A stretch of 63,401 nt of DNA, counting the filler, from Nemertoderma westbladi (lineage: Eukaryota > Animalia > Xenacoelomorpha), in NCBI GenBank assembly GCA_032718475.1. It is 3 parts of 3 records of this genome, joined end to end, with 100 filler letters (N's around TTAATTAATTAA, not from the genome) between each part and the next. Parts side by side here need not be neighbours in the genome. Positions count along the whole stretch, not along the records: positions 27,248 to 58,990 come from JAUCBJ010007919.1; 2 more parts are not named here. One strand, written 5' to 3'. Position numbers and translations under genes: made by a program. The notes below the pieces were generated by a model. The model was not told the origin of the DNA. It worked only from the letters and a program-made list of their open reading frames with translations, and made no database searches. This document shows positions 19,701 through 56,931 of the stretch, in pieces (position 1 is the first letter of the stretch; every line of letters starts with the position of its first letter).

Positions 19701-21448
19701 ATTTCAAGAACAGGCCTAATTATTTCAGGCTCATCTACTATAGTAGGGAGTCTTTCTATTTTAATTATTTGGTCTGTGGGTTCTGCACTACCTAAGTCTG
19801 TGTTAGTTAGTTGCCTTCTAACAGCTGGGGGCAAATCAGGCAATTTGTGACGGTGAGATGTTCTTCTACGCCTACTTAGACGAGATCTATTTCCTCCGCC
19901 TTCAGGATCGGTGGTATCGCCTTCCTCAGATGATGTATAACCTTGTCTTTTGGGAGTAGATTGATTCATCATCTGCATATTACTAGCTGTTAACTGTTTA
20001 TTAAAGTTGTCTTGCCTCTCTTGAAGATTTTCCAACTCTAGTTGGGCAGTCTCTTCAGACGCTCTCCGTTCTGCTTCTGCCACTGCCTCTGCCGCTGCCA
20101 CTGCCGCTTTTCTTTCCGCTTCGGCCGCTGCCACTGCCGCTTTTCTTTCCGCTTCTGCCTCTGCCGCTGCCGCTGCTGCCTTTCTTTCCGCTTCTGCTTC
20201 TGCCGCTGCCGTTGCCGCTGCCGCTTTTCTTTCCGCTTCTGCCGCTGCCACTGCTGCTGCCACTGCCGCTGTCTTTCTGTCTTCTATACGTTTTTTCTTT
20301 ACTTGTTCGTCTTGAACCTTAGCGATGCGGATGCTTTCATTGAATTTAGCTTGGTTCGCAGCTAACCTATCCACATCAATTGCGTCCAACACAAGCTTGG
20401 CTCCTTCACTATTAGGGCTAAGTCCATCCAGCCGTCTCCTCAACTCTTTGTCACCTACAAAGCGTTGATAGTCTGACAGATAGATGTCAATAGCATCCCT
20501 CTTATGCGGTTTCTCTGCTGTCGCTTCACTTTCCACTTGGGAAAAGGTGGCGTCTGTTGATTCTCCAAGGGTTGAGCGCTCATCTAACTGAGATTTCCAC
20601 GGGGCAGTTCTTTGAACTTGGAGACTCACCCGTTGAAACCAAGTCTTTACGGCAACTTGCAACGACGTGTCTTGTCTTCTTTTAGAAGCCTCCTCAAAGG
20701 CCGATAAGATTAGCCTGATTCGTAGGATTCTTTCTCTAACTTGATAAAGCAGCTGTCCCTGCTCTTGAGGTCCTTGGGGTTGTTGAAACAGTTGTTCTTT
20801 TAATCGCTCCATAGAGCTGAAGAGTCCCTGTACGTATCCTGCTGCTGACCTCTTCCACACAGCTGGATCGATGGTTTCCTTGGTTACTCCCATCCTGTGT
20901 ATGTCTTCCCAGGCAGCTTCTGATAAATCAAACGGGAGTCCGGGTCCGGGGAAGTTCCATTGCGACTCGACAATAGACTTCAGTTCTTCCCTTGTGTATC
21001 CCGCATAACTATCTTTAGTCGATCGCTTATTTCTCGCCCAATCGATCTGGTGTTCTTCCACCGCAATCAATAACCTAGTGAGTACGGCTGCAGGAAGGAT
21101 GAGAAGGGGATCCGAATAAACCGCATCCGTCATCTTTGCTCCGCGCTCGGGTGTCAGCTCTACAGTATCCTCACTACTGGAGCTGTCGGGCCGTTGAGAA
21201 ATAAGTTCTTGGCTCGCGGGTTGTTGCTGTTCCGCTGCTTCTTGGTCCCGCTTGACCTGAGCTCGAGTGCCTATGATAGACCTACGATGTTGGACTAGCC
21301 TAGGGTCTGATATTACTACGGGAGGGATGATCTTTCTTACAGTAGGAGGTGAGTTGAACTTCGGTCCTACACGTTCCACACTCCTGTCTGGGTCACATAT
21401 GGTTGTATCTAGGAGACTGTCTGACAGGTTTTGCTTTGTGTCAGACAT
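16778..21448 (-). CDS. BEL/Pao Gag-protease polyprotein: the 671-aa and 873-aa ORFs share a frame and are separated by one TAA at 19433-19435
   Basis: DUF1759-like KFNGD..WLPF region, triple knuckle CVLCDGPH..C / CYNC..GH..C / CAKC..HHTLLH, protease ALLDSGST, post-RNase H remnant WRHCP..NLANIASRG..W..EPDFL. Confidence 0.85.
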
Positions 21449-23632
21449 GTTGGTTTGTACAGTTGAATGCTTACTGCTATATTACAGTTTAAGCAAGTCT
21501 AGTAATTCAGTATCACCGTTAGCCTAGTAATTAATTACCGATACTGCTACTCAGTGTAGCGTGATATATATATAATATATTAGAATACCGGTATGCTTAT
21601 AGTATATATAAGTATTATTACAGACTAGGTTTGTCACAGAATACCGGTAGGTAATTTCAGCACAAATATATATAAATATATAATAGGCCTATCGTGAATA
21701 CCGGTATGCAGCTTACACTTATAGTATATATAAGTATAATTATGAACTAGAATTAATTACAGAATACCGGTATAATTTCAGCCTAAAATTTATAGAAATA
21801 AATATAATAAGCCTATGGTAAATACCGGTATGTCAATTATTTTAAATAATTGAATTTCTGAATTTTTAGGGATTACTTGGTTACTTTGCTTTACTTGATT
21901 ACCGTTATTTAAGCAGTAGTCCAACTGATATTTAGACCTAATTGTTGTGTGACAGGCCTACTATTTTATAAATCGGTTTGAGTTGATTTATAATATATAT
22001 ACCCCTATAATGGGTTTTTGTCAATATTTGAAATAAATGTTATTATTTCTGGGGGGAGTCACTACACAGAAGCTGTGCGCTCTCAGTGAAGTGCTACTTG
22101 TTGGACACTAAAACAAATAATTCTAATTTACCTAAGTTACTTAATACTACAAATTACATACAATTTGGGTGAGATTACAATCTCTAAATAAACACAAAAA
22201 TTACAAGTACGAATTTTTAGGGTAATTTTACAAGAAGTCTACAAACCAGCCTAACAAAGGGTTAGAATATCTGGTTATTACAACGGACAGGTTACTACGG
22301 TATTTGAAAATAATAAGTAGTAGTAAATATACTGCGTTGTCCAGATAGAAAAATACCACCGTCTGACGACTTATAGCCGTATCGCTATAAGTACTACGTT
22401 ATGTATCACGGAGTGTTCCTACCTAGAAGTTAATTACCGCGGTCTACCAGAACCAACGTGCCTATTAACCACTTTACAACACAAATATACTGCCTACACA
22501 CTAATCACCTTCGGAAAGCACTGTACACTAAACCCTAAATTAGGTACAAGTACTTATATAACAAATAACCAGCAGTTAGAAATACTTGTACAGCTAAAGG
22601 AACCACGGTATCTGCCGGAGTGACCAAAGCATAAAATCTCCAGTCTTTACCTACGCCAAGCAGCCCTGATGTAGTACCGGGGTTAGTTTAACTATAACGG
22701 TATATATAACAAGCACAATTACTGTAGGAATAAACTTGGGGATATGAAGGTTGCGAATCATCGCATAAACTCTGAATAATAAATATTACGCTACGCGTAC
22801 AGACTACTCAAACAAAATGCAGACCAAATGATGACAGACTACTATCAAGCCCAAACAAACTACGGTATATGCAGACTCCGAAATGGTTAGTTAGTATGCG
22901 TTCTAACCGAGTAGTACGACTTATTCTTTCGAGGGGGTTTACCTCACAGCTCTGGAAGCCCCTACGTTCCCAACTGGCACTTTATCGGACATACACTCTA
23001 CACATACCGAAATCTCTCAAGACCTAACAACAGCCAGACAAAATCCAGCCTACAAATTATCTAAGTAAGAAATATTACGCTACCCGTACAAACTACACAA
23101 ACAAAGTACAGACCAAACGCTGGCAGACTACTATCAAGCCTAAATAAACTACAGTATATGCAGACTCCGAAATGGTTAGTTAGTATGCATTCTAACCGAG
23201 TAGTACGACTTATTCTTTCGAGGGGGTTCACCTCACAGCACTGGCAGCCCCTACTTTCCTAACTAGTACTTTTTCGGACATACGCTCTACACACACTACA
23301 GTCCCTTCAGACTTAACAACAGTCAGACAACAGTCCAGCCTACAAATTGTCTGTACAATCTGAGCAGGCTTACACGCCTTCTGCTCAATATTGGCCTACA
23401 AATAAATAAACTTGACAGAAATAAGTAAAATCTCAATAAAAAACCAGGGCGGGCCCTCCCTGATTCAATATTAAGGCCTACCGGTATATAATTATCAAAT
23501 TCGAATAATACTGCTGTACCTGTACTGCTGTAGGTACCGGTCCGGGTGGTTAGGTAGTCAGGCCTACTAGGTACCGGTTGTCCGGTACTTCAGCTTTATT
23601 GCCTACTGCAATACAGAAGCTATATCTGTTAT

Positions 23633-24818: not shown

Positions 24819-25142
24819 GAGGGTGCTTTCCTATTTATCAGTACGTGTTCCGCTAATTTCCTATCTGGCCAGTCCTTGCATCGCCGGAGAATAGTTGTTG
24901 TGAACGGGTGGTCTGTATGTGTGTCGCTATGTTTGTGTGTGAAATGTGCGCCGACCGAGTTATCTTTCTTTCTGTTACGGTTACGGATGGCGTTGCGATG
25001 CTGCATGATGCGCCCCCTGACGGGTCCGACAGTTTCCCCTATATAGTCCTCAGGACATATGTTGCATTTGACATGATATACGATATTTTTCCTGATGCAG
25101 TTCTTAATACCATGGTGACATGTATAGCACTGGGTGTTGGGT

Positions 25143-26196
25143 CAGTATACGATGGTTCGACAACATTTGTGTCTACTGTTGATGGTGACACAGAACCATT
25201 TGAAGTGTTATGGGGCGTCCTCCAAGGAGACACACTTGCACCATTCTTGTTCATTATTGTGGTTGACTATGTTCTACGCATGTCCTTAGATCATCATAAT
25301 GATGATGGGGTGATGATAACTCCACCTACTGGCTCCAGAAGTCGAGGAAATCCTGCCAAGTACCTAACTGATCTAGACTTTGCTGATGACTTAGGAGTAC
25401 TCTCAGAATCATTAGAGGGAGCCCAGCGGCTCCTCAGCTCATTAGAACATGCTGCTTCTAGTGTTGGTCTTTTTATTAACTCCAGAAAGACCAAAATTCT
25501 GACAGTTAACTTTGAAAGTCCTCAGCAAGTCTCTGATCGGATGAGCATAAGCTCAAAGGATGGTATGCTTGAGCATGTGGACGACTTCTGTTACCTGGGA
25601 TCATGGATCCGGAAGTCAGGTGAGGACCTTCGAATACGTAAGGGAAAGGCATGGGCAGCCTTGAATAGGCTTTCCAGGATTTGGAAGTCACCTAGAATTA
25701 ATCGGAAACTTAAGGTCCGATTATTTAGAGCAGCAGTAGTTCCAGTACTCCTCTACGGGAGTCCATGCTGGGCTCTAACAGCTGAGGACACCAAATCTCT
25801 GGATGGCACATTCACAAGAATGCTACGCCGGGTACATTGTGTCAAGTACAATGCACACATCCCCAACCAGACACTATATAACATTGGAGGTGTCTCATTG
25901 GTTCCCCCAAGCTTGACACTAGAACAAAATCGCCTCCGCTTTGCAGGACATTGCTTTCGCCGTGAGGACCAGCCAGTGCATAATCTTGTACTTTGGCAGC
26001 CTCATGGAGTGAATAAGCATGGAGGACAACCCATGACTTTCTTGAGACGCATCTTAAAGGACACTGGCCTTAAAGATGCGGATGATCTAGCAAATGTCAT
26101 GGGTGATAGGGAGTTGTGGCGGTGCAATTTTGTTGACAAGCCGGCACAGCATTCTTAAAAATGCAGCTGCAATGCAGCATGCCGATCCTAGTAGTA
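25143..26196 (+). mobile_element. 5'-truncated RTE LINE inserted in the Penelope ORF
   Basis: Open RT C-terminal half (GVLQGDTLAP, DFADD), (TAG)n tail, 11-bp TSD GGGTGTTGGGT at 25132-25142 and 26197-26207. Confidence 0.92.
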
Positions 26197-31691: not shown

Positions 31692-33786
31692 ATAAAGTCA
31701 CAAAGGTTCACAATAAAGTCACAAAGGTTCACAATAAAGTCACAAAGGTTAACAATAAAGTCACAAAGGTTCACAATAAAGTCACAAAGGTTCACAATAA
31801 AGTCACAAAGGTTCACAATAAAGTCACAAAGGCTCACAATAAAGTCCAAAGGTTCACAATAAAGTCACAAAGGTTCACAATAAAGTCACAAAGGTTCACA
31901 ATAAAGTCACAAAGCTTCACAATAAAGTCACAAAGGTTCACAATAAAGTCACAGGTTCACAATAAAGTCCAAAGGTTCACAATAAAGTCACAAAGGTTCA
32001 CAATAAAGTCACAAAGGTTCACAATAAAGTCACAACGGTTCACAATAAAGTCACAAAGGTTCACAATAAAGTCCAAAGGTTCACAATAAAGTCACAAAGG
32101 TTCCCAATAAAGTCACAAAGGTTAACAATAAAGTCACAAAGGTTCACAATAAAGTCACAAAGGTTCACAATAAAGTCACAAAGGTTCACAGTAAAGTCAC
32201 AAAGGTTCACAATAAAGTCACAAAGGCTCACAATAAAGTCACAAAGGTTCACAATAACGTCACAAAGGTTCACAATGAAGTCACAAAGGTTCACAATAAA
32301 GTCACAAAGGTTCACAATAAAGTCACAGGTTCACAATAAAGTCCAAAGGTTCACAATAAAGTCACAAAGGTTCACAATAAAGTCACAAAGGTTAACAATA
32401 AAGTCACAAAGGTTCACAATAAAGTCACAAAGGTTCACAATAAAGTCACAAAGGTTCACAATAAAGTCACAAAGGCTCACAATAAAGTCACAAAGCTTCA
32501 CAATAAAGTCACAAAGGTTCACAATAAAGTCACAGGTTCACAATAAAGTCCAAAGGTTCACAATAAAGTCACAACGGTTCACAATAAAGTCACAAAGGTT
32601 CACAATAAAGTCACAAAGGTTCACAATGAAGTCACAAAGGTTCACAATAAAGTCACAAAGGTTCACAATGAAGTGACAAAGGTTCACAATAAAGTCACAA
32701 CGGTTCACAATAAAGTCACAAAGGTTCACAATAAAGTCACAAAGGTTCACAATGAAGTCACAACGGTTCACAATAAAGTCACAAAGGTTCACAATAAAGT
32801 CACAAAGGTTCACAATAAAGTCACAACGGTTCACAATAAAGTCACAAAGGTTCACAATAAAGTCACAAAGGTTCACAATAAAGTCACAAAGGTTCACAAT
32901 AAAGTCACAAAGGTTCACAATAAAGTCACAAAGGTTCACAATAAAGTCCAAAGGTTCACAATAAAGTCACAAAGGTTCCCAATAAAGTCAGAAAGGTTAA
33001 CAATAAAGTCACAAAGGTTCACAATAAAGTCACAAAGGTTCACAATAAAGTCACAAAGGTTCACAGTAAAGTCACAAAGGTTCACAATAAAGTCACAAAG
33101 GCTCACAATAAAGTCACAAAGGTTCACAATAACGTCACAAAGGTTCACAATGAAGTCACAAAGGTTCACAATAAAGTCACAAAGGTTCACAGTAAAGTCA
33201 CAAAGGTTCACAATAAAGTCACAAAGGTTCACAATAAAGTCACAAAGGTTCACAATAAAGTCACAACGGTTCACAATAAAGTTACAAAGGTTCACAATAA
33301 AGTCACAAACGTTCACGATAAAGTCACAAAGGTTAACAATAAAGTCAAAAAGTTTCACAATAAAGTCACAAAGGTTCACAATAAAGTCACAAACGTTCAC
33401 GATAAAGTCACAAAGGTTAACAATAAAGTCAAAAAGTTTCACAATAAAGTCACAAAGGTTCACAATAAAGTCACAAAGGTTCACAATAAAGTCACAAAGG
33501 TTCACAATAAAGTCACAAAGGTTCACAATAAAGTCACAAAGGCTCACAATAAAGTCACAAAGGTTCACAATAACGTCACAAAGGTTCACAATAAAGTCAC
33601 AAAGGTTCACAATAAAGTCACAAAGGTTCACAATAAAGTCACAACGGTTCACAATAAAGTCACAAAGGTTCACAATAAAGTCACAAAGGTTCACAATAAA
33701 GTCACAAAGGTTCACAATAAAGTCACAAAGGTTCACAATAAAGTCACAAAGGTTCACAATAAAGTCACAAAGGTTCACAATAAAGT
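31692..33786. repeat. Minisatellite, 21-bp unit CACAATAAAGTCACAAAGGTT, about 100 copies
   Basis: Directly visible tandem array with recurring variants and occasional 19- or 20-bp units. Confidence 0.98.
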
Positions 33787-34654
33787 AACTAAAGTTTCAA
33801 ATGTAACAGAAATTGATTTGATATATCAGATTATTTATGTCTAGTAATTTATTGGATAAATAAAGTATCGGAAAGAACTCAATGGCAAAAGTTCCAGTTG
33901 ACCTCAATTCAAAGATTCAAAGATTTATCATACATTAATAGAATAACATCACTTACTTATCTTTACAACTCCCTTTCGACCACCTTTATGATAAGTTCGA
34001 AAAATATGTTGTGAGGATAGGATACTAACTGCAGTCGGTTGGCTATAACATAATATACTTTCAGTATTATGTCTGACATGGATGGATCTGCAGACTACCG
34101 GTAGACATGTTTACTCTCTAGCTGTATCAATACCTGCTTGCTGCTGCTTGCTATCAGTTAGTCAGTATCATATCAGTGACACCTACCTTGTATATTTTGT
34201 AATATTACTGCTGTATGTGACGCAACCTGATTTATTATGGCAGTGATTTTTTATGTCCTTTTATTTGACTTTTCCTGTCCCCCTTTTTTTGTGCATAATG
34301 ACTTTTGTTGTCCCTTTAATGACTTTTATTGTCCTTTTAATGACTTTTTATACGTATGTATTTCTTCAAACTGTCAGACTGCTGATTTCTGGTCTGTCAG
34401 ACAGTTGATTTCAACATGCCTATGCCAAAACATTCAAAATTTGTTGATTTCTGGTCTGTCGGACAGTTGGTTTCTCTATACCTGTGCCAACACATTCCAT
34501 GATTCCATGATTTATAGACTATGAGATATATTTCCATATGCGCCTGTGGTAAAAGACTCTAAATTTAATAGTTTGTGGTTGTTGTCGATAATCGATTACC
34601 ACATGACGTAGCAAAACACTCATTTTATAGGCAAAAACAATTACCAATTATGAT

Positions 34655-35645
34655 CGAAAGGAGCAGGTTAAGGCCGGATTTTCTAACCAAAACAATAAAC
34701 AGTCACTCTACCAAATGAAGGAAAGGAGCAGGTTACAGAGGCGGGCCTTTCTAACCAAAACAATAAACGATCATTTAACTAATTGAGGGAAAGGAGCGGG
34801 TTACAGAGGCGGGATTTTTTAACCAAAACAATAAACAGTCACTTTACCAAATCAGGGAAATGAGCAGGTTACAGAGACGGGATTTTCTAACCAAAACAAT
34901 GAACGATAACATTACCAATTGAGAGAAAGGAGCAGGTTAAAGAGGCGGGATTTTCTAACCAAAACAATTTATGTCACTTTACCAAATCAGGGAAAGGAGC
35001 AGGTTACAGAGACGGGATTTTCTAACCAAAACAATAAACGATAATATTACCAATTGAGAGAAAGGAGCAGGTTACAGAGGCTGGATTTCCTAACCAAAAC
35101 AATAAACGATCACTTAACTAATTGAGGGAAAGGGGCAGGTTACAGAGGCGGGATTTTCTAACCAAAACAATAAACAGCCACTTTACAAAATCAGGGAAAG
35201 GAGCAGGTTACAGAGACGGGATTTTCTAACCAAAACAATAAACGATAACATTACCAATTGAGAGAAAGGAGCAGGTTACAGAGGCGGGATTTTCTAACCA
35301 AAACAATAAACAGTCACTTTACCAAATCAGGGAAAGGAGCAGGTTACAGAGACGGGATATTCTAATCAAAACAATAAACGATAATATTACCAATTGAGAG
35401 AAAGGAGCAGGTTACAGAGGCGGGATTTCCTAACCAAAACAATAAACGATCACTTAACTAATTGAGGGAAAGGGGCAGGTTACAGAGGCGGGATTTTCTA
35501 ACCAAAACAATAAACAGTCACTTTACAAAATGAAGGAAAGGAGCAGGTTACAGAGGCGGGCCTTTCTAACCAAAACAATAAACGGTCACTTTACCAAATC
35601 AGGGAAAGGAGCAGGTTACAGAGGCGGGATTTTCTAACCAAATCA
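34655..35645. repeat. Tandem array, 68-bp unit, about 15 copies, with alternating variants
   Basis: gaaaggagcaggttacagaggcgggattttctaaccaaaacaataaac repeats every 68 bp; decayed copies at ~28145-28400. Confidence 0.92.
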
Positions 35646-36449
35646 ACCGGTCAGCGGGTAGGCCTACCAGTACCGTATTTAAATGGTAGGCTACACAGTA
35701 GGCCTACAGCAGTACCGGTGCCGGTTCCGGTACTAAAATACATATAATACCTGCTTTATACCTATATATGTACATGCAATACTGCAAAATAGTGCTCTAT
35801 ATACTAATACCGGTACTGATAGCTTGAGAGAACAGCAGTAGAGAAACCGGTAGCATGGAACCTAACGGTAAATTTCTGGAGGACATAAAAAGTCAAAAAA
35901 AACTAATACCGGTACTGATAGTCTGGGAGAACAGCAGCAGAGAAGAAACCGTTAGCATGGAACCTAACGGTAGATTTCTGGAGGACATAAAAAGTCAAAA
36001 AAAAGGACAAAAAAAAGATTTAAACGGACAATAAAAATTATTGCGATTTATTAGTATATTGGGTGAGTCGGTTTGAAACATCTTCACTATATCCTCGCAT
36101 TGTTGTCTCACAACAATAAATATACATATCAGAGATTTAAAAAAAGAGGTGGTAAAAACAAATATTTAAATGAGGATTTCTACAATGTAATATATGACCA
36201 ACAATTAAATATATTTTTTAATTAATTAAATAAATTGCACCAAATATAAAACGGCAGATACAATATGTTTTATACCAAAAAAAAAACAGTTCAAATCTGT
36301 ATCTACAGATGGTAACACGCAAGATACCGTAGTAGGTCTAATCACACCGATTTATAACATATGACAACATACTCATCTCCTCTCGACTTCGAAAATCTAG
36401 TGCCACTTTTAATAATACTCATTTTCGAATTGATGATTCATAAGAACGA

Positions 36450-41279
<4,830 letters not shown>

Positions 41280-42284: not shown

Positions 42285-42645
42285 TATGGGTATTAGAGAT
42301 ACTATGGGTACTAGAGTTACTATGGGTACTAGAGTTACTATGGGTACTAGAGTTACTATGGGTACTAGAGATACTATGGGTACTAGAGTTACTATGGGTA
42401 CTAGAGTTACTATGGGTATTAGAGTTACTATGGGTACTAGAGTTACTATGGGTACTAGAGTTACTATGGGTACTAGAGTTACTATGGGTACTAAAGTTAC
42501 TATGGGTACTAGAGTTACTATGGGTACTAGAGTTACTATGGGTACTAGAGTTACTATGGGTACTAGAGTTACTATGGGTACTAGAGTTACTATGGGTACT
42601 ACAGTTACTATGGGTACTGGAGTTACTATGGGTACTGGCGTTACA
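42285..42645. repeat. 18-bp minisatellite GTTACTATGGGTACTAGA, about 20 copies
   Basis: Directly visible; lies ~400 bp downstream of an element end (gtggggcgagccacgaag, ~41867) related to 6789-7299. Confidence 0.95.
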
Positions 42646-43357
42646 TATGCTGATTTCAGGATTTTTAAATCATAATACAATAGATTTGTAGTATCGTTAC
42701 TTAGCGACGTGTTTAGCAATGTATTTTTATTTCCTGCAATGTATGGTTAGTTTTATAATATTAATTCCAGGGGAAGGAATGGGCCCCGTCACCTCAAGGC
42801 GACTCGGGAAGCAAGCCTCTATCCATCTCTAGAATTGTGTATTGATGCTATAGTTACCATAAAAGGCACTACCATGTCGTTATTTAGATAATTCTATATA
42901 CAAATTCAACTGTTAAGTTGTTGAATTTGGTATTAGGCGCAGGGAGGCAGGCACAGGCAGACGCCGTTAGTAAAGCTGTTAAGTAACAATCTAGATCTAG
43001 CAGAATTCATATGGAGGCAGTTACACAAGCAAGGAACGCTATAGTTAATAAATAATGAATCAATGAATTGAAATATTATTTTTTAATATTATGGAGTATA
43101 TGGATGTTGCATAAAACATTAATTAATCAACATCAAAAACTGGAAAAAACTTGCAAGTAAAACACGAAATTTGTGAATATTAGAACCTGCTAGTGCCGAA
43201 TGTATGTCTAAGCATCTAAGAAGTGGGATTGAGCACGGGGCACCAATTATTGTTTTAGCGTTTACTCGAGGTGGCCCAATCTGCCGCAACATTTCAGTAC
43301 GTACATCAATTAATACACAATGTAGAGGTGATTGTTGTCCCAGGTGGATATCGTAGT

Positions 43358-45370: not shown

Positions 45371-46444
45371 CTAGGAGGGTAGATATGGGTTGACGCGGGT
45401 GGGTGCGCGGAATTGGGTGGGAGTGGGGGGCTGCAGCGCGGCAGCTGGAATCCACGGCGTCGAGGAATGCGCGGATCCTGGGAACCGCGTTCGGTAATTA
45501 GCGATGCGACGAACGGCCGGCCCGGCGCTGTAAAACTTGTTGCTCTTCCGGTAGAGGTCCGGAGATATGTGCACGATGGGGGGCGACAGGAATACCGGCT
45601 GGTCGTAGACTGGGGCCGGGTGGTACACCCCTAGCGGCTGGGGTTGGAGTGGCACCGACTGAGCGCCCGGGTGAGCGAACACCTGCTCGTGCTGGGCGCT
45701 CATCATATCGAGTAAGTGCTGCTGGTATTGTTGCAACTGCATCCCGAGCAGAACCTCCTGGTTGGGAACCGGTAGCGGTGTGGCTGGAGGGGTGAATGGG
45801 CTCGCGTTGCCACAGCGTTGGAACGGGCTGCCGGCCACAGGGGGCTGCGCCGCAGCGGCGCCCGACAGCAACCCAGAATGGTTCGGGCTGCAGGGTACAG
45901 ACATGGGCTGGGGGGAGGGCTGCGGCGTGGCGAACGAGGGGTAGAGATAGGGTTGAGTCGCCTGGGACACCGGGAGGTAGCATACTGGTAGTGAGATAGC
46001 CCCGGGTGGGAGACCCCCATGGACAGAGGCCTCGTTGACGCAGCGTTTCCTCACCGCCGGTCCGATGTTTAACTTCTTCTCGTCTATATAGATGCTGTTT
46101 TTAGCCTCGTTGTCTTCCTGCAGTTTTATGCAGTCCTCGTGTCGCGCGAATGTCACGAACGCGTATCCCTTTGATATTCCAAGGTTGTCCCGGATTATTT
46201 TCGCCTCCTGTAATTGTCCGAACTTAGCAAAAGCACTCGCTAATTTCTGCTCGGAGGCGTTGTAAGGAACCCCGCCGACGAAGACACGTCGGGGGATTAC
46301 CGTGCCAGATCCGTCGCCTGCCGGCGGAGGGGACCGTAAACCCGGTGGTAGAATGGTTGGGGAGGATGTTGAGAAATAATGAGGGGATCCGTTGGAATCT
46401 ACAGCAGCGGACGCGGGAATGCTGGTGACAGTTTGTTGCTCCAT
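45371..46444 (-). CDS. BOLL: Boule/DAZ-family RRM protein; single open frame (first ATG at 46444, an upstream exon is possible)
   Basis: GTVIPRRVFVGG (RNP2), SKGYAFVTF (RNP1) and KKLNIGPAVRK, the Boule-type RRM signature, followed by a Pro/Gln/Tyr-rich tail. Confidence 0.85.
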   Translation of the reverse strand: MEQQTVTSIPASAAVDSNGSPHYFSTSSPTILPPGLRSPPPAGDGSGTVIPRRVFVGGVPYNASEQKLASAFAKFGQLQEAKIIRDNLGISKGYAFVTFARHEDCIKLQEDNEAKNSIYIDEKKLNIGPAVRKRCVNEASVHGGLPPGAISLPVCYLPVSQATQPYLYPSFATPQPSPQPMSVPCSPNHSGLLSGAAAAQPPVAGSPFQRCGNASPFTPPATPLPVPNQEVLLGMQLQQYQQHLLDMMSAQHEQVFAHPGAQSVPLQPQPLGVYHPAPVYDQPVFLSPPIVHISPDLYRKSNKFYSAGPAVRRIANYRTRFPGSAHSSTPWIPAAALQPPTPTQFRAPTRVNPYLPS

Positions 46445-47998
46445 ACCTGTTGCAGGTAGTACTGTTTTACAACCAAACAACAGAACGGCTGTACGCGTAT
46501 GGTGGAGGTGGATGGATAAGCCAGTAGGCAGGTAGGCGGATTCAAACTGTGGGAGTCTAGCACTGTCTGGCTGTGGTTGTATGGTCTGCTATCAAGTGTA
46601 ACCAGGTAGAACGTGATAACAATCTTAACAACAAGTTACAGAGTTAATAATAGACTGACAGAAGTTCAAATTTCTGAAGTTATTGACAGGCTGCAGGGCT
46701 GATATTTTTTTTTATTAGGAGCCCGGGGATACTTAGGGTGAGTGAGGGAGACTTGAACCCCAAAAGTTATAATCGCTCTACAGAACAGATAAATGAATTT
46801 TTCAATGCCGTTTTAACTTTTTCACATTACATTTATGATTGCTATCATTATGTGAGAGTTTGAGAATTTCAACTCTTAAACTTTTTTAATTAAACCAATT
46901 ATTTGTATTTTAGAAAAAGCGTCAATGGGGGGAGACTTGACACCTAGGGTGGGAGACTTGAACCCCACCTCGCATTCTTGTAAATTCGTTCAAAACTGCA
47001 TAACAGCATAAGAAATGTAATAATTACATGTTCAACATGTCTATTTTCTAGTAGAGCAGAAAAATTTCAAAAAATGCGATTGTTAAATTGTTAAATTATT
47101 ATCCAAAATTTTATACAAATTTAGGTGGTCGTTCACATGGTTCTCCCAACAAGAACTGAATAAATAATAGTTCATTAAAACCGCATTACAATTTAACTCG
47201 GGGAGGTACTTTTTATTAATGAATATCTTGTATAATTTTCAATCCAGGCACATATTAATTGTTTTCCTGTAATTCTATTGATGTGTGCTGCTTTCTGACG
47301 AAGTGGCATCTTGTTTAAGCTGTCAATCACCCAGTTGATAGGCTACTAACTATACATACATTGCAAAGAAGGAAGGAAGAGTTGGTTGGCTTGGCTTGGG
47401 TGGGTTTATCAAGGCCTCTCTCTCTCTCTCTCTCTGGCCACTCCATTGTATTCACATTCCATTGATAGCTTGGTCTGTGTAAGTGTCAATCAACTATTTG
47501 GAGTACTCTGGTTTATTGGTTCTCTACGTGGGTGTATCTCTAGGTAGACGTAAGCATTGAAGGCTTCAAGTCTTCCTCACACTCGGGCGTCATGTCTCCC
47601 CCAGTGGCGGATCTAGGATTTCTCCAAGTGAAAAAAAATTATACATCATCTATTATAGAGACAGCAAATTTGAACACTAGCAGACTAGTGTATGGTGGCC
47701 CATGGCTGCCACTATAAAACTGTTGATAAAATATTTAAATAATAAATAAATGGAAAAAATATCTTGAAAAAAAAATAATTAAAAAAATATCTTAAAAAAA
47801 ATAAGTAAAATAAAATATCTTAAAAAAAAAATCTCAGTAAAAAAATCTTAAAAAAAAAGGTAAAAAAAAACTCACGAAAAAATTTCCATAAAAATAAGTA
47901 CTGTTAAAGAAAAAAAACACCCCACGTGGCCCAGGGCTGTCATCACCCCATAATCAGGTAACAGTTGGCCCATGGCTGCCATTAAAAACTACTACACT

Positions 47999-49527
47999 GT
48001 ACTACTACTAGGTCGAGCGAACTCGGACAGTGGAAATGAGATCCTTCCAGGCTTCCCGATTCTCCATAGTTGTCGCAATTTCGTTTCTCCCAAGTTCAGT
48101 ATCCCTTTCAAGTTGATCTATATATGTTATGGCAGGTCGTCCACGACTACGCTTTCCACGAGTTGGTTGCCAGAGAAGTAGATTTGGTATGACCTCGTCT
48201 TTACTTCGCCAGCAGTGACCACTGAATCTTAATCTGCGTTCACGGAGGGTGGTTGATACAGGTGGTATTGTACCATAAAGCTCGGCGTTTGTCATGTGTT
48301 GTCTCCAGCTGATGTTTAGGGCTGCCCTTAGTAGTCTTGTGTAGCAACCATCAATTCGTTGTTCAAGTGATTTAGTCAGTGTCCAGGTCTCACCCCCGTA
48401 TAAAAATACACTTTCCACTGTGGCTCGAAAGAACTTGGTCTTCAGGTGCCTGGAGAGATCTGATTTCCAGATGGTATCCATTTTTGATAGAGCTACCCAA
48501 GCCTTTGCTTTCCTAACTTCTATGTCCTTTTTGCTACTCTCTATCCATGATCCAAGGTACTGGAAGTCATCGACCTTCCTTAGTTGATTATTATCAATGG
48601 TTGTCAAGTTTCCATCAACATTAAATAAAGGTCATGAATTCGGTCTTGGTAGCATTTATATGCAATCCAACCTCCTTAGCAGCCCTCTCAACTTTATTTA
48701 GTAGAAGCTGTGCATCTGCTAGCGTATTAGAGAGCAGGGCGATGTCATCTGCAAAGTCGGTGTCTGTGACTGTAGTTGCCGGATATCTACTACTTCTGCA
48801 TTCTTGAAGTGTGAATCCCAGATCTTCACCCTTTGTGGCCGTCCTCATTGCGTAATCCAGCACAATTACAAATAGTAATGGTGCTAATGTGTCACCTTGC
48901 AGTACTCCAGCCAGGATTGAGAAAAACTCAGTTTCACCATCTGGTGAGAGTACCTGCGCTTCTGTGTCAAAATATAACAATCCAATGCCAGCAACAATTA
49001 CTTCTGGTATTACATAAGCTCTTAGGATTTCAAGCATTTTACCTCTATGGATGGAGTCGAATGCCTTCTTGAAGTCCACAAAAGTCATGACTGCGGGGAG
49101 ATTCTTTGACTTAATTCCTTCAATCAGTCTCCGAAGTGCAAGTATCTGAGCTATTGTTGATCTACTTGGTCGAAATCCGTTTTGGCTCTTACGCAGTAGT
49201 TTCTCTATGTGAGGCCTAATCCTATATAGAATCATTTTATTGTATATTTTGGCAGCTACCACAAGCAGACAGATCCCACGATAGTTTGTTGGTATGCCGA
49301 GGTCTCCTTTCTTGGGGAGAGGCTTTAGTTGACCTTTAGTCCAAATTGGTGGTGGCTTTTCCCCTTTTAACATCCGGTTGCAAACATTCAATAATGGTCT
49401 ATTTAGCACTCCGGTTTTCCATACCTCCGCTGGGATTTCATCTAATCCACTCGCTTTATTATTAGACATGCTTTTAATGCTTCTTTGGAGTTCGGCAGGT
49501 GTGAAGTCCCCTGTTTCTATAGGTAAT
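47999..49527 (-). mobile_element. Second RTE family, 5'-truncated, inserted in the left TIR
   Basis: RT motifs NYRGICL, QNGFR, VDFKKAFDS, GVLQGDTLAP, DFADD; frameshift near 48615; (TAG)n tail; approximate TSD attaaaaa(a)cta. Confidence 0.9.
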
Positions 49528-49640
49528 TATTAAAAAACTAATATAATAATAATAATAATAAAATAACCCTTGTGGCCCAGGGCTGCCACTTGTCGATTCT
49601 CATTTAGAGAGATCTCATTCTGGTTCATTAAATTGTGATT

Positions 49641-50942
49641 ATGGAAAGGAAAATCCGCAAGGAAGATGGTGATCTGCTGGCTAATATTGAACATAAACTG
49701 GCGGCTAAGCGTATAAAACGACAATCGGATCGGCATGGGACGAAATTATGCAAGGGTTCCCGTTCCGGTACTGGAAGTGCATATTTGAATGATCAACGAC
49801 TTTCAGAATTTGTAAATCGACAAGGTAAATATGCTACACTTGGTAGCCGTCATTTTGTATGATATAATTATCATGACTTTACAATAGTAGAACTAAAGAA
49901 ATCATGTGAAGAGTATTTTGGGGAACCTGATGGAACTTGTGATGTCCTTGCCACCGACAGGGGACCCAGCTGCTTGGAGGAAAATCAAATTCAAGGTAAG
50001 AAAGTGTACTATGTTCGATTCTTATCTGAGCCTGTGACACCAATTTCAACCAAAGTTGACTATACCGGTACCGGTCCTTCTGGAAGCAATAATTCGGAAA
50101 TGTCACCCGCTTCTATCAGTATCCAAAGTGTCAAAAAACCAGTGTATCCTAAAAGTATCCCATTGTCGAAATTACTTAGGGCCGGCATGTTAATGCCTAG
50201 TACATCGGCTAATAAACTAGAGGAGTGTGATATAATAACCGAAGAATTTAATGTTACCAGCGGTACGTGGTGTTTTAATAAATCAAAAGAGTACAAAGTA
50301 AGCATGGAATCCTTTGCTGAAGGTGGATTTAGGCGAGCTTATGCTGCGTATAATAGCGATATGTCTGCGAAATTTGTTATTAAGAAGTATACTACGGAAT
50401 CTTCTGACTTGTTTAAGGAAGAATTCGGATTGGATAAACAACAACATGCACGAAAACAAGTACAAATGCATGAAGTTGCATCTGCCCTATGTTCATCTTG
50501 GGCCAAGAATCTCTCTGATACCTATTCTGAATGCGGGCCATTGTTGAAATATAACAAAATATGGCTTGGTCATATTGGGGAAGAATGCTTTACTATCGAA
50601 GATTTTGTTGAAGGTGATTTTATAAAATACGTCAACAACGATGGAAGTTTAGTTTCCATACCACCTGTTGAATCGGAAGACCTCCTTGACTGACAAATTA
50701 AAGCTGAGTCGTTTACCCACTATTCATATATCCATTCTAAGAAGAAGTTAATGGTCCTTGATATTCAAGGCGCCAATTATGACCTATAAGATCCTGAGAT
50801 ATCAACAATGGTACTGGCGGAAGAGGATAAATAATTTTATTTTTGTGCTGGAAATTGCAGTGTTGTTGGAATCGCGACTTTTCTTAAGCAGCACAAATGC
50901 AACAAATACTGTCAGTATTTGGATTGGGTTACTGAGGAGTAA
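49641..50942 (+). pseudogene. Alpha-kinase (eEF2K/MHCK/ALPK fold), 433 codons in one frame with four premature stops
   Basis: FAEGGFRRAY, FVIKKY, IEDFVEGDFIKYVNNDG, ESFTHYSY, VLDIQG, DP, AGN and HKCNKYC; stops at 49860, 50691, 50787 and 50832. Confidence 0.88.
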
Positions 50943-51211
50943 GTGACACTAACTGTTTTGTGGTACGAAGAGTTACTCAAGTTTTCTGTTTATTGTGTTT
51001 GTTAGCTTTATAGTTTAGTTTTTTATATTTATAGTTTAGTTTTTTTAGATTTATAGTTTAGTTTTTTTTAGCTTTATAGTTTAGTTTAGTTTAGTTAGGG
51101 GGGGGGGGGGGGGGGGGGTCACTAATTAATAAAAAAAATCGATTTTTCAATTACAATCCCCTCTAGTGCAGATTTTTATGTAACCACAACTGTTTATTTA
51201 TATACTATTTA

Positions 51212-54200
51212 CTAAACATCACTATTTATCACATAAGTTTTCAATTCTATAAATGTTTGCTGAGATGTTGCAATTGTGACGCGATTGAGGGTTTGAAGAT
51301 AATCCTTACAATATTCTTCAAGTGCAGAGTTTAGCAATAGCAGGGGATGCTTTACCTTCAGTGTCTCTGCTGCTTCTTCTAATCTTTCGACATCGAGGTC
51401 TAGTCCCTGTTGTTCACTCCCGTAAGACTCAGGATGGTTGAAAATGTAGTCTGGGATACCTGAAAGGAAAATGAGCAAACATATCTAAAATTATATAGTA
51501 CCATGTATTAGTAGACTATTGGAAACTAACTGTAACTAGTACAATTACCCTCTGATTATGCAACTGCCACCCTCACCAAACACTATTGCGACCCAACAGA
51601 TTCATCTAAAATCCAAACAGGTGTCACAATTGTCCTAACTTCCCTACCACTAACCTGTTGGCAAATCAATTTTCTGTGCACATATCCTATGACTATTCCA
51701 TTCTTTGATGAATTTATCAAGAATTTCTTGAAGCACAGGTAAATACACCATTGCCATTAACTGTCGATCAACTTGACTCCCTGGATCATAATTGTGACAA
51801 TGAAGCAATTCCCTCAGTTGGTCATTCAACACACCCTCAACCCGGTCTGTCAACTCCCTCCACCAACGCTCTATCTTATTCGTAGTTGATGGACCATAAA
51901 TTATGCTCTCCGATGCATCTTCAAAAACATCTAGAGTTTCAATTAAGTATGCATGTAAAGTCGCGGCCTTACCCATTTCAGTTCCACAATCAAAGCGGCA
52001 GTAAATTGGGATCTGATTAGTTTCCTTGAGCATTTCATAATATAAGTTGCTAATAACGATGGGATTTGAGTTAGAATAAACTGCCTTGCACATTAGGACT
52101 TTCCTGGAGTATGTATCCAAGCATCCATAAATTCCTATAGGAAAAGTTGAGTTTTGAAATCCAGAGTTTGTCATGGCCATCGAAACTTAGCATAAACATT
52201 GGACCATCGGATGTGAAATTTCCTTTCTTTCTCTTCTTTTTAAATCTTGGCGTACGATGTGCCATTCCTTCAGGGTCAACCGCTTTCATAACTGCATGCG
52301 TTACCTTACGTGGAATTTTTATGTCATGTTGTACTCGAAGTCTTTGATTGACTGCGCGATACCCCATGTCTCGACAGTTTCCGTTAAGTTCATTTTTCAC
52401 TGTTTGTATTATGTTATCCAAATTTTCTGCGTAATTGATATATTTAACTTCAAAAAATCGTAATCGTCGATCGGGCGTCCTTAAGCTCCAGTCATAATAA
52501 TTAAATTCGTCTTTCACAAACTTTAAAATCTCTTTTCTGTGGAAGTTTTTCCTAACTAAATCCTTAACCCTATTAAACCCAGAGGGGGGTCAATATGACC
52601 CCCCCCCCCCCCCCCCCCCCGTGGTTTTTTATTATAATTCTGAAACAAACGCAGTTGGGAATCTGAAATTTTATGACTTTTCCTAAAAATCTATTGTCTT
52701 CCTAGTAGTGAAAACCGTTTTCAAAAATATTGGGTAGTTTTCGAGTTATAGCACCATTTTTTAACCCTACTTTTGGCACTTTTTTTGAGACGTTTTTTGA
52801 AAATTACATTTCATTAAATATGAATTGTAACATCTCTATTTTTGATTTACACCGGTTTTTTTGTGTTAGTTAGCTATTGGATGGAATTCATATAAATTGA
52901 TTTAGATATTTCAAACTTGTTTTTTTCGGCGGGTGCCAAATTTTGGTGCCAGCACCAAATTTTGAAATATGTCAATTTTGTTAATTGATTGTTTGAAACT
53001 TGTCTTTTACGCAAATTGGGGTTTTTTGGGGTTCTGGTTTCGATGAACATGAAATATATACGAGTTGCACCAAGCGTATCAATCTTGTATTTTTCGGTGC
53101 TGTGTGCAAATTTTGGTGCTAGCACGAAATTTTGAAGATCCATTCAATAGATAAAATTGCTTGTGAGCAATTTATTTCTTGCGTTTTAGAGGTTTATGGC
53201 TGTTCTGAATTCAATGGAATATATAATTATCGAACTAGACATCTCAAACTTGCATTTTCCGGATAGTGGGTGCAAAATGTGGTGCTACAGTAGCACCAAA
53301 TTTTGAAAACCATCAAATATATCAATTGATTTTGTCATCTTGTTTCTTGCGTTATACGGGTTTGTGAGGGTTCTGAATTCAATGGAATCAGTAAAAATTT
53401 CATAAGAGTTTTCAAATTTGTATTTTTCGCTGGCGGGTGAAAATTGTTGTGCCAGCACCAAATTTTGGAAAATATCAAATTGATCAGTAGATAGCATCAT
53501 CTTGTTTCTTGTGCTATACGGGTTTATGGGGGTCCTGAATCCGATGGAATCAATAAAAACAGCACTGGACATCGCACACATTACTTTTTTGGTGATGGGT
53601 ACGAAATTTGGTGCTAGCACCAAAAATTTGCATAATTACGCCGAAAAATACAAGTAGCTATGATCTGGCATATTAGAAATGTATTCCATTAGAATCAGCG
53701 CCCTCGAAAACCTGAAAATACGAATTTATAGCATCGTATAAGTGAATTAAAAATTTTGTGTTCTAACTGAAAAGTGCTGGTTTCTTGTTTTTTTCATTTT
53801 TTTCCTACGCAGAGAGGACTAAACAGCCATTTATAGTAATCATATTATTTTTAAATATTTTCCAATGTATTTTATACCCCAAAAAACCTGTATTGAAAAA
53901 TAATTAGAAAAAAAAATTATTTATAATTTAAAAAAAAATTATTAGTAATAAATAATAAAATAATTGAAAAATTAATATAAAATGTAACTTTCAAATTTTG
54001 TGAAAATTGTGCACTACTTGTAATTTTGGTGCTGCAATATAACCACCCAAGTACATTTTTTCTAAAATTTTTTTTCGGTCGGATCCATACAAGTGATACC
54101 TACGTACAAACAAAAAATCAGACGTTTTCGTAAATATTTGTAGATTTTAGAGGGGGGGGGGGTCCAATATGACCCCCCCCCCCCCCCCGGTATTTGTACA

Positions 54201-54280
54201 ACATTTTATAGCCCGGTACTAATAGGGTTAAGTTTAGTTTTTAATACAACATCACTTTGCCAAATACACGTAGTCGCCAT
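51212..54280 (-). pseudogene. Integrase-core DDE transposase (IS3EU-like), with one intron, one frameshift and a piggyBac MITE insertion
   Basis: ATG at 54280 MATTCIWQSD..KLK|DLVRK..WSLRT; SFDGHDKL, IYGCLDTYSRK, RFDCGTE, GPSTTNKIERWWREL, WNSHRI; GT-AG intron 51460-51654. Confidence 0.82.
52568..54227. mobile_element. Non-autonomous piggyBac-type element
   Basis: TTAA TSD (52564-52567 and 54228-54231), CCCTATTA/TAATAGGG ends, internal diverged tandem units; excision restores the transposase frame. Confidence 0.88.
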
Positions 54281-56931
54281 CTCCTCATTTGAGATGTAGT
54301 GAGCTGTCCACTGTCAGACTGCTTACATGACTGTGGGGTGTGGAGTTAGGAGGCGTCTGTCATAAGTGGAGATAATTATATTAATGTATTATTATTAGTT
54401 ACTGGCATTAATAAACCGAATAAGACAATAGTCAGGCATAGTGCTGCGAACTGAAATGAACATGTTTATTGAAATGAACGTGTTTATTAGAACTGAAATC
54501 GAAACAAGTCCAATTTTCTTTCAGTTCGCAGCACTAGTCAGACAGTAACTACAACCTACTAATGCAATAGCTAGCGATATGGTAGGGTAGATACCATACA
54601 ATAAAAAATGAGCAGGGAAACAACGTGCAGCAACTTGTTGCTGCACACCTCCCACGCAGAAACAAGTTTCAGAAACAAGTTGCTCCTTGTGAGGGGGGCC
54701 TAACAGGCAGAGCAACAAAGTTGAAAAGTCAGTACTGCAGTACTGTAGTACCGGCATCTGGAACTGCGGTAGACCTACTGTGTGATGTGATGTGCTCTGG
54801 TCCAACAGTATTACTGATTCTGGGGGCAGTGGCAGTCCTGGGCCACGAGGGATATTTTATTTTTTTTATTATTTTTTTTAATGGCAGCCATGGGCCAACC
54901 GTTATCTGATTATGGGGTGATGGCAGTCCTGGGCCACGTGGGGTGTTTTTTTTTCTTTAACAGTATTTATTTTTTATGGAAATTTTTTCGTGAGTATTTG
55001 TTAAATTATTTTTTTAATGGCAGCCATGGGGGCCAATACTATTACTGATTCTGGGGGCAGTGGCAGCCCTGGGCCACGAGGGGGTATTTTATTTATTTTT
55101 ATTTTTTTTTTAATGGCAGCCATGGGCCAACTTTTACCTGATTATGGGGTGATGGCAGCCCTGGGCCACGTGGGGTGTTTTTTTTCTTTAACAGTATTTA
55201 TTTTTTATGGAAATTTTTTCGTGAGTTTTTTTTTTCCTTTATTTTTCAAGATTTTTTTACTGAGATTTTTTTAAAGATATTTTATTTTACTTATTTTTTT
55301 AAGGTATTTTTTCCACTTATTTTTTATTTAAATATTTTATCAAGAGTTTTATAGTGGCAGCCATGGGCCACCATATACTAGTGGTCAAATTTCTGGTTGA
55401 AAGTGATGAACTCTGGGTTTTGTGGGTTTTATATCTTTCAATATTAAATTATTCAATTTTAATTAATTTTTCAATGACAAATGCCAATTTTTTTTTGAAT
55501 TATTATATTAAAAGAAAAATTATTAATAGAAGGACTATTATTAATAGGAGGGCTGGGGCAATAGTGTGGGCAATATTGTGGGGCTGGTGGGTATACTAGG
55601 GGTACCACCTACCTTACCTGTCTTACTTTCTTATTTTTCTTTGGACAAGCCTGGGCTGGGATAATGTGAATTCTATCTGGTCTGGATGCTAATGTTACTT
55701 CAACAAAGTTTGCCTTGTGGCTTGCCTGAGGAGACATTTTCATTAAAGTGAATATACAATAAAATGTAAAATGTGTATAAATGTCATAGAAATGGGATCT
55801 TTGGGAGGGGGGTCACATGTTTTTATTTGGTTTTCTTATTATTTGCTTGTGTTCGTTAAAATCATAATTAAAAATTCAATATTTTGCATCAGTTATTAAG
55901 TATAGTGACCGTTTCTCTCAAGAGGGGGGGGGGGGGGGGGGGGGGGGGCACGTGCCCCCGTGCCCAAAACTCTAAAACAATATATGGCAGCCCCTCGGCT
56001 ACACCACTATTATAACTCAATAGTGGTGCGAGCATAAAACTCAAATCACGCAAATTTACAAGAACCGGGTATGTTGTCATAATATCTACAGTATCTCCAC
56101 AGGTTATTCTGCTTGACTGGGTCTGGGTGCCAGGGTGCGAATTTGCTTTTGGGACGGTGTGCTGATTGAAAGGGGGGGGGGGGGGGTGAAGGGGGGAACT
56201 TCCCCCCTTTTCACTTTGACTGATTTGCGGTTTTGTTAAATTTCTTGGATATAGTTGTTGTGATGCTAAAATTTAATTTGTCTTTGATAATGTATTATTT
56301 TGTTTCATATTGTTTAGACCTTCAATTTTCATAATATTAGTTGAGTTTTTGTTTATACATTTGCTCTATAACATATTAAATAATTTGTATTTTTTCAAAA
56401 AATTGAATGAAACTGTTATCACTATTATTATCTTACTAGAACTACTGACACTGATGTGGAACAACTAGGATATTTGCGCTTTTAGTTTTAGTAACTATAG
56501 CTACCCCTTTCTATTGTTAGTTTTGTTCTATAATCCAGCATTGTTGATTGCCTTAGCAGCCGGTGTTGTACAATTTGTATGGAAATGGAGTCTGCATTTA
56601 TAATATAGGGTGGTTCTAGGGTGGGTTCAGGGTCATCACTCGCTCGGTGTCCTGGTTGTGCATCATGGGAATTTTTTATAAATATTCGGTAATCTTACTG
56701 TATATCTTGTAAACCTGCTTGATAATGGAAATATTTGCTTTATATTATATTTTTGTTAGTGGTAGCAAAGTTTCACTTTTTATTATGTGGGACGAGCCAC
56801 AAATTCAGCTAGCCTCACGCCTTACAGTTTAGACAATTGTTTAGTTCACTTACTGCTGACTGACTGACAAGGTTCATTTGTAATAGTCTTGGCTAGGATT
56901 CTTCCCCCGGGCTCCTTCCTTTCTAGTAGGT

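What the first reader, a model, noticed from the sequence alone, without database searches (positions are those of the whole stretch)
47691..55377. IS3EU-like DNA transposon carrying an alpha-kinase gene
Seen: one unit bounded by long TIRs (TATGG...CCATA) and a CTAGTG duplication holds exactly two genes once the nested RTE and piggyBac MITE are removed. These are an intron-containing integrase-core DDE transposase (-) and, tail-to-tail with it, a full-length intronless alpha-kinase (+). Established, from my recollection of Repbase descriptions: IS3EU elements have TAY..RTA ends and 6-bp TSDs; alpha-kinases (eEF2K, MHCK, TRPM6/7 kinase) are atypical Ser/Thr kinases. Inference: the kinase is a regular second gene of this transposon family, possibly modifying the transposase or host silencing/translation factors. 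I do not recall alpha-kinase being described as TE cargo. If the pairing is general, it could explain expanded alpha-kinase-like gene annotations in invertebrate genomes.
Basis: partly seen in the sequence, partly recalled or inferred. Interest (0 to 1): 0.85.

Follow-up and report, generated by a model that had tools for sequence, protein, structure and literature searches.

The report
Dead transposon with its own kinase
This is a broken copy of a known kind of cut-and-paste transposon (IS3EU) whose second gene is an atypical protein kinase; the same pairing is the regular layout of its relatives, likely all from marine animals, and the kinase is predicted to dock onto the transposase, where it likely acts as the element's own regulator.

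Summary
The element is real, but this copy is dead. It has 300-bp TIRs (TATGG..CCATA), a CTAGTG flank repeat, nested RTE and piggyBac-type insertions, a DDE transposase (-) and an alpha-kinase (+). The kinase has four in-frame stops and the transposase is frameshifted and split.

The pairing is general. In 40 of 43 kinase loci with at least 1.5 kb downstream (24 of 25 families) the transposase lies tail-to-tail. Eleven ends share the terminus. Kinase and transposase distances correlate (Mantel r 0.74), and kinase dN/dS has a median of 0.22.

It is not new as a pairing. Kojima 2025 (PMC12730594) states it in passing for fungal IS3EU, and this scan noted it before in at least 5 genomes, including an intact element in this genome.

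A complex prediction for an intact relative pair passed (0.64 against best control 0.00), docking that helix on the transposase core. That supports binding but does not show it. Best reading: a transposase-bound regulatory kinase.

The parts
47685..47690 (+). Left target-site duplication CTAGTG
47691..47988 (+). Left TIR, begins TATGGTGGCC; holds GGCC-N7-GCCA motifs at 47697 and 47967
47993..49529 (-). Nested 5'-truncated RTE-type non-LTR retroelement (reading frames 49526-48621 and 48631-48008; TAC-repeat tail near 48000; imperfect ATTAAAAA(A)CTA duplication; boundaries approximate)
   Evidence: over 100 contigs per run have loose ends at 48000 in X1-X3; the RTE label rests on recalled family features
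49539..49590 (+). Rest of the left subterminal repeat, cut off by the RTE; third GGCC-N7-GCCA motif at 49574
   Evidence: (I8)
49641..50943 (+). Alpha-kinase pseudogene, 433 codons, no intron; stops at 49860, 50691, 50787, 50832
49668..49712 (+). N-terminal helix of the kinase (family motif W-x-x-F/Y-E-x5-K-R; here L-x-x-I-E-x5-K-R), predicted transposase-docking helix
49782..50021 (+). Likely beta-grasp (ubiquitin/PB1/CIDE-like) domain of the kinase, not in Pfam
   Evidence: modelled on relative L004
50316..50912 (+). Alpha-kinase catalytic domain (PF02816) with C-terminal zinc-binding motif
51212..51459 (-). Transposase last exon with stop codon
51460..51654 (-). Predicted phase-1 intron, GT..AG, 195 nt
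   Evidence: not confirmed by RNA
51655..52567 (-). Transposase body: N-terminal region and DDE core (FDGHDK, RFDCGTE, NKIERWW), frameshift near 52165
52568..54231 (.). Nested piggyBac-type non-autonomous element (TTAA CCCT..AGGG TTAA, about 165-bp internal repeats), including the duplicated TTAA
54232..54280 (-). Transposase start: ATG at 54280, in frame with the part beyond the insertion
54799..55375 (-). Right subterminal repeats (two 231-bp units, seven GGCC-N7-GCCA motifs) and right TIR ending CCATA
55376..55383 (+). Two extra bases TA, then right target-site duplication CTAGTG (55378-55383)

Best explanation
This is a decayed copy of a two-gene IS3EU-type cut-and-paste transposon whose second gene, an alpha-kinase, is a co-inherited part of the element and is predicted to dock by its N-terminal helix onto the transposase core, where it likely phosphorylates the transposase or proteins at the element's ends to control transposition. 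Shown: the layout, its generality among relatives, correlated divergence, purifying selection, kept catalytic residues and the breaks in this copy. Predicted: the docking and the ubiquitin-like domain. Inferred: transcription of each gene inward from its own end, transposase binding to the GGCC-N7-GCCA repeats, and the substrate. This copy cannot move by itself.
For: Pairing: 40 of 43 kinase loci with at least 1500 bp downstream (24 of 25 clusters at 85% nt) and 51 of all 80 loci have the transposase downstream on the opposite strand, none on the same strand (same counts with a profile built from database proteins). Kinase cluster 3 and transposase cluster 4 have members on contigs of the same five lengths. 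The shared terminus occurs at 9 left and 2 right ends. Mantel r 0.74, p 1e-4, 24 families. Kinase dN/dS 0.15-0.56, median 0.22, in the 25 pairs with dS 0.05-1.1; transposase 0.07-0.37 in the 13 of those pairs where measurable. Catalytic K, D, Q, D in 46 of 46 and zinc ligands in 43-46 of 46 aligned kinases, window copy included. Helix residues W6 41 of 42, K16 44 of 46, R17 46 of 46. Complex of P0143 with P0042: ipSAE 0.64, best of 3 controls 0.00; the mark was reached by 51 of 78 solved complexes and 2 of 108 mismatched pairs (eukaryote set: 39 of 65 and 2 of 126); runs share at least 20% of contacts; partner pLDDT at least 68; interface kinase 4-22 on transposase 208-238 and 352-353. No solved relative of the transposase by sequence (best E 0.86), so a memorised complex is unlikely.
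Against: Transposase interface residues are no more conserved than its average (entropy 1.56 against 1.54). The window's helix has L and I in place of W and F/Y, and the helix is not aligned in L080. Trees agree only in part: 6 of 21 splits shared, 5 of 10 well-supported kinase splits and 4 of 9 transposase splits. Three long loci lack a downstream transposase (L002, L003, L029) and L004 is head-to-head. The reverse test (transposase loci scored for a kinase) was not done in the metagenome collection. Nothing here shows kinase activity or a substrate.
Confidence: 0.55

Rival explanations
1. The kinase is a regular gene of the element but works on the host, phosphorylating chromatin, silencing or translation factors so that the element escapes repression; any docking on the transposase would only deliver it to element DNA.
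For: Pairing, selection and kept catalytic residues fit equally. Fungal IS3EU also carry TET/JBP genes, proposed to counter methylation silencing (PMC12730594 abstract). Cleaved TRPM7 kinase phosphorylating histones and eEF2K blocking elongation are recalled precedents, not checked here. The beta-grasp domain could bind a host protein.
Against: No host target was tested or indicated. The predicted contact is on the transposase catalytic core next to the second catalytic Asp.
Confidence: 0.25
2. The protein acts mainly as a stoichiometric partner (chaperone, nuclear escort or inhibitor) of the transposase, like the second protein of Harbinger elements or the CIDE-domain inhibitor of the apoptotic nuclease; kinase activity serves only to switch that binding, for example by autophosphorylation.
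For: Predicted docking by a basic helix; the beta-grasp domain is more conserved than the kinase domain on average (top-residue share 0.75 against 0.59); the best fold match is a CIDE domain (DREP3, Z 6.7, rmsd 2.4, 65 aligned). The Harbinger and CIDE analogies are recalled.
Against: Z 6.7 is tied with PB1 and ubiquitin-like domains and below 8; the beta-grasp domain is not in the predicted interface; catalytic residues are invariant.
Confidence: 0.13
3. The kinase is a passively captured host gene (Pack-type cargo) with no role for the element.
For: GingerRoot elements are reported to pick up host gene fragments (PMC6839031 passage); this copy's kinase is broken; the coding interior is carried by only 1-2 contigs per run in this species.
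Against: Fixed position and orientation in 24 of 25 families, correlated divergence, dN/dS well under 1, and the same opposite-strand layout in fungi. The transposase of this copy is equally broken.
Confidence: 0.04

Closest known systems
TET+ IS3EU families of rust fungi and Tuber (e.g. IS3EU-7_PSt, IS3EU-3_PCor, IS3EU-6_PSt; Kojima 2025, PMC12730594)
   Same: TAYGG..CCRTA termini, TIRs over 30 bp, 6-bp TSD, transposase and alpha-kinase genes in opposite orientations.
   Different: No TET/JBP gene here (268 bp between the stop codons); animal host; about 4.5 kb core. The paper gives the kinase two mentions and no function. Whether the fungal kinases have the same helix and beta-grasp domain was not tested.
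IS3EU/GingerRoot superfamily (Repbase; PMC10045372, PMC6839031)
   Same: TA..TA termini, usually 6-bp TSD, integrase-like DDD/E transposase without HHCC motif; reported in cnidarians, fish, oyster.
   Different: The word 'kinase' does not occur in the main text of either paper. TIRs here are about 300 bp with repeated motifs, against 100-150 bp in GingerRoot.
Host alpha-kinases (TRPM6/7 kinase, Dictyostelium MHCK-A, eEF2K, ALPK1)
   Same: Same fold (1ia9 E 3.6e-17) and catalytic motifs.
   Different: Stand-alone, about 420 aa, 14-23% identical by structure, with a family-specific N-terminal helix and beta-grasp domain and no channel, WD40 or TPR part; no fused form of 829-2365 aa found (weak evidence).
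Harbinger/PIF two-gene transposons (recalled)
   Same: A conserved second gene on the opposite strand whose product binds the transposase.
   Different: There the partner is a Myb/SANT DNA-binding protein and the transposase is IS5-like; here it is a kinase and binding is only predicted.

Membership tests
IS3EU/GingerRoot | TA..TA termini (TAYGG..CCRTA in kinase-bearing fungal families) | tested here: met
   TATGG at 47691, CCATA ending 55375; definition
IS3EU/GingerRoot | 6-bp target-site duplication | tested here: inconclusive
   Exact CTAGTG on both sides but 2 bases off the right TIR; 7-bp and 8-bp readings also fit. No related locus showed the terminal pattern at both ends.
IS3EU/GingerRoot | TIRs longer than 30 bp | tested here: met
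   300 bp, 86%
IS3EU/GingerRoot | Integrase-like DDD/E transposase | tested here: met
   PF24764 above cut-off (60.4 against 26 bits); second D and E align with the family, first D seen in FDGHDK
IS3EU/GingerRoot | Transposase falls in the IS3EU/GingerRoot clade of reference elements | not testable with these tools
   No Repbase reference proteins available; the supplement row seen was cut
Kinase-bearing IS3EU (Kojima 2025) | Alpha-kinase gene opposite to the transposase | tested here: met
TET+ IS3EU subgroup | TET/JBP gene between transposase and kinase | tested here: not met
   268 bp between stop codons, no open frame of 80 aa or more there
Alpha-kinase (PF02816) | Profile match, fold, catalytic and zinc-binding residues | tested here: met
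   113 bits against cut-off 21.3; fold of relative P0005; residues (role labels recalled from MHCK-A/TRPM7)
Alpha-kinase (PF02816) | Intact reading frame and phosphotransfer activity | tested here: not met
   Four stops in this copy; 22 of 51 full-span relatives are one uninterrupted frame; activity not testable
Beta-grasp (ubiquitin/PB1/CIDE) domain | Structural match of the N-terminal domain | tested here: inconclusive
   The 50 rows shown read almost all as ubiquitin-like, PB1, CIDE or FERM entries by title, best Z 6.7, none at 8 or more; Foldseek best E 0.022

The most novel reading that the evidence does not exclude
IS3EU-type elements are two-component transposons whose own protein kinase is a bound subunit of the transposition complex: a conserved N-terminal helix clamps it onto the catalytic core next to the second Asp, and phosphorylation switches the transposase on or off. 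This would be a eukaryotic DNA transposon regulated by a kinase it encodes, shared by animals and fungi, and would account for a large unnamed kinase family (1216 clusters at 50% identity carry the N-terminal domain).
Probability: 0.4. Interest if true: 0.8.

Novelty: new member of a known kind. Interest (0 to 1): 0.5.

Why it matters
IS3EU structure and function are described as largely unexplored (PMC11934779, passage). If the docking prediction holds, the second gene gets a concrete and cheaply testable role, and a transposon-encoded kinase would be a new way of controlling cut-and-paste transposition. In practice many stand-alone 'TRPM6-like' or 'MHCK-like' gene models in cnidarians and tunicates may be transposon genes, and so may the alpha-kinase expansion reported in rust fungi (79 and 39 copies in a table of PMC4469406); both are inferences. 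This particular copy is dead and matters only as one more instance.

Tried and rejected
No own genome was held, so the proposed genome-wide BLAST and family consensus could not be run. Viral contigs held no relative of kinase or transposase. The prokaryote genome collection gave one transposase fragment in a MAG contig (L081), with only about 1.1 kb downstream and no kinase-like frame seen by eye; it is probably eukaryotic contamination and was set aside. No longer fused form of the kinase was found (weak). No RNA holder was listed. Reads were laid on 46500-53900 only, so the right end, the empty site and any joint across the whole MITE were not examined; no joint across the RTE was among the rows shown (802 not shown). 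Read depth was not used as copy number. An hAT reading with an 8-bp duplication was rejected because the transposase is integrase-type and relatives end at CCATA. 'TIRs belong to an unrelated MITE' was rejected because the same terminus lies about 300-550 bp upstream of the kinase in 9 related loci. dN/dS pairs with dS above 1.1 were left out of the median as near saturation. L004 (head-to-head) is counted among the misses in the 80 and is unexplained. Literature searches for print on the animal pairing or on a function; only PMC12730594 links IS3EU and alpha-kinase among those read. Repbase Reports and the 2019 review by Kojima were not available or not read and may hold it.
Full report
Observation. 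The window holds inverted repeats of 300 bp at 86% identity between 47691-47988 and 55107-55375, starting TATGG and ending CCATA. CTAGTG lies directly left of the element and two bases right of the right TIR, so the duplication is real but its length (6, 7 or 8 bp) cannot be fixed from this copy. Two insertions interrupt it: a 5'-truncated retroelement of RTE type at about 47993-49529 (RVT_1 E 1.3e-33) and a TTAA-flanked non-autonomous element at 52568-54231. Without them the element is about 4,489 bp. No genome was held for this window.

The two genes. The plus strand has a 433-codon frame at 49641-50943 matching the whole Alpha_kinase profile (E 2e-32), with four in-frame stops. The minus strand has a transposase that starts at ATG 54280, reads in frame across the MITE site, shifts frame near 52165, has a predicted GT..AG intron at 51654-51460 and ends at 51212; it matches PF24764 (E 2.6e-16) and covers profile positions 16-399 of 402 beyond the MITE. 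Both genes are dead in this copy.

Same species. Four public DNA runs hold the stretch. Laid on 46500-53900, the listed differences in the coding interior rest on 1-2 contigs per run, against 9-17 contigs at one TIR position in X1-X3 and dozens to over a hundred in the two insertions. So the ends are likely shared with more numerous derivatives and the coding part is low-copy. All four runs read C at 50691 and part of the contigs read T at 50789, which are sense codons at two of the four stops; 238 further differences were not shown. In X1 (the best holder) the contigs covering the first stop and the frameshift show no change there. One X3 contig runs on for 91 letters beyond 52567 that do not lie on the MITE, which fits a copy without it.

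Is the pairing general? The kinase has 95 relatives among 2331 candidates, mostly stand-alone proteins of 370-470 aa at the top of the list, with source names from Ciona, Paramuricea, Actinostola, Clytia and Exaiptasia. A kinase alignment retrieved 80 metagenome loci, the best 80 of 148 confirmed in a scan that covered 54 of 64 parts; they were chosen by the kinase alone. A transposase lies downstream on the opposite strand in 51 of 80 loci, 46 of 51 with at least 1 kb downstream and 40 of 43 with at least 1.5 kb (24 of 25 clusters), and never on the same strand (identical counts with an independent profile). Misses with room: L002, L003, L029 (L029 diverges from its cluster-mate L028 about 600 bp after the kinase), and with 1.0-1.3 kb L026 and L059; L004 is head-to-head. 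The terminus TATGGTGGCC-N7-GCCA occurs at 9 left and 2 right ends, against 0.08 expected, and inverted matches link the two flanks within many clusters. Members of kinase cluster 3 and transposase cluster 4 sit on contigs of the same five lengths, which implies five copies of one family with both genes. The loci probably come from a limited set of hosts, so clusters are not fully independent, and the reverse test was not run in this collection.

Co-inheritance and selection. Over 24 families (23 locus clusters and the window; 36 loci had 200 or more aligned residues in both genes, one kept per cluster) kinase and transposase distances correlate (Mantel r 0.74, p 1e-4), but only 6 of 21 splits are shared, 5 of 10 well-supported kinase splits and 4 of 9 transposase splits. 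Kinase dN/dS is 0.15-0.56, median 0.22, in the 25 non-independent pairs with dS 0.05-1.1. The ATP-binding lysine, the D-x-Q-G motif and the following aspartate are present in 46 of 46 aligned kinases and the zinc ligands in 43-46 of 46, the window copy included (role labels recalled). Of 51 full-span kinase genes in the loci, 22 are one uninterrupted frame and 13 span more than 1480 bp, mostly through one likely intron, so 'intronless' is not a family rule.

Anatomy of the kinase. A model of relative P0005 (mean pLDDT 83) matches TRPM7, MHCK-A and eEF2K kinase domains. The N-terminal 113 residues of relative L004, modelled alone (pLDDT 86), form a helix followed by a domain whose best matches are CIDE, PB1 and ubiquitin-like folds, best Z 6.7, suggestive only. 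This N-terminal part has no Pfam match in the window protein yet finds 1216 clusters at 50% identity; of the 27 hits of 342 aa or more that I scanned from the 150 listed, 24 carry Alpha_kinase.

Complex prediction. An intact transposase (P0143) and kinase (P0042), both on a contig of 85,488 bp, scored ipSAE 0.64 (0.63-0.66 in three runs) against 0.00 for the best of three controls. The mark was reached by 51 of 78 solved and 2 of 108 mismatched microbial pairs, and by 39 of 65 and 2 of 126 eukaryotic ones; runs share at least 20% of contacts and the partner's pLDDT is at least 68. The interface puts kinase residues 4-22 on transposase residues 208-238, just after the second catalytic Asp (D207), and on 352-353. 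W6, K16 and R17 of that helix are nearly invariant in a region where the next loop and the linker are variable. Against this: one pair, one method, neighbours pass 7 of 44 times, and the transposase side is not more conserved than average. The model supports binding; it does not show it.

What is known. PMC12730594 (seen: passages, section 4.1 in full, one supplement search that showed one cut row of Table S1) states that all TET+ IS3EU families have a TET/JBP gene between transposase and alpha-kinase genes, which are in opposite orientations, with TAYGG..CCRTA ends and 6-bp TSDs. PMC10045372 (passages) defines IS3EU by TA..TA termini and usually 6-bp TSDs and joins it with GingerRoot. PMC6839031, PMC11934779, PMC10853768, PMC3520738 and PMC4469406 were seen as passages only; none of those passages links the kinase to IS3EU, though PMC10853768 says an ancestral IS3EU encodes two proteins. 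Eight searches found no paper on the animal pairing or on its function; Repbase Reports are outside the library and may describe it. Earlier notes of this scan report the same pairing in at least 5 genomes, including an intact element in this genome; none held all the words of a search for a predicted complex. They are unchecked notes and are not counted as evidence.

Verdict. A dead new member of a known kind. The added value is the quantified generality among related loci and a specific, testable docking model. Interest 0.5.

Noticed in passing
   Followed up: no
L004:900-1000: Kinase and transposase lie head-to-head with their 5' ends under 100 bp apart around a CCATGG palindrome, with no TIR between; rearranged copy or assembly chimera.
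   Followed up: partly
window 45371-46588 (-): Uninterrupted 405-codon frame with an RRM (PF00076 E 2e-14) that looks boule/DAZ-like by recall, about 1.1 kb from the left end of the element.
   Followed up: partly
window 3002-3991 (+): Uninterrupted ZNF830/ZNF380-like gene (PF23406 E 2.6e-28).
   Followed up: partly
window 16778-23352: Gag-like frame with DUF1759 (BEL/Pao-type retroelement by recall) preceded on its strand by a 682-codon frame with no Pfam match, separated by one stop codon; 289-bp and 122-bp tandem pairs nearby.
   Followed up: partly
window 31692-33799, 34656-35646, 42285-42649: Minisatellites: 21 bp x 101, 68 bp x 15, 18 bp x 20.
   Followed up: no
window 8448-9629, 24857-26158, 36832-36934: Further RT fragments of RTE-like elements and a short piece matching both ends of the piggyBac-type MITE.
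   Followed up: partly
L026, L034, L035, L038, L056, L057, L062, L068, L075 termini: The six bases next to family termini end in C or G in 9 of 9 and begin with C or G in 7 of 9, as CTAGTG does: a possible target preference.
   Followed up: partly
protein P0330: The kinase's N-terminal domain appears behind a retroviral-type integrase core (rve) in one 566-aa protein; may be a gene-model fusion.
   Followed up: no
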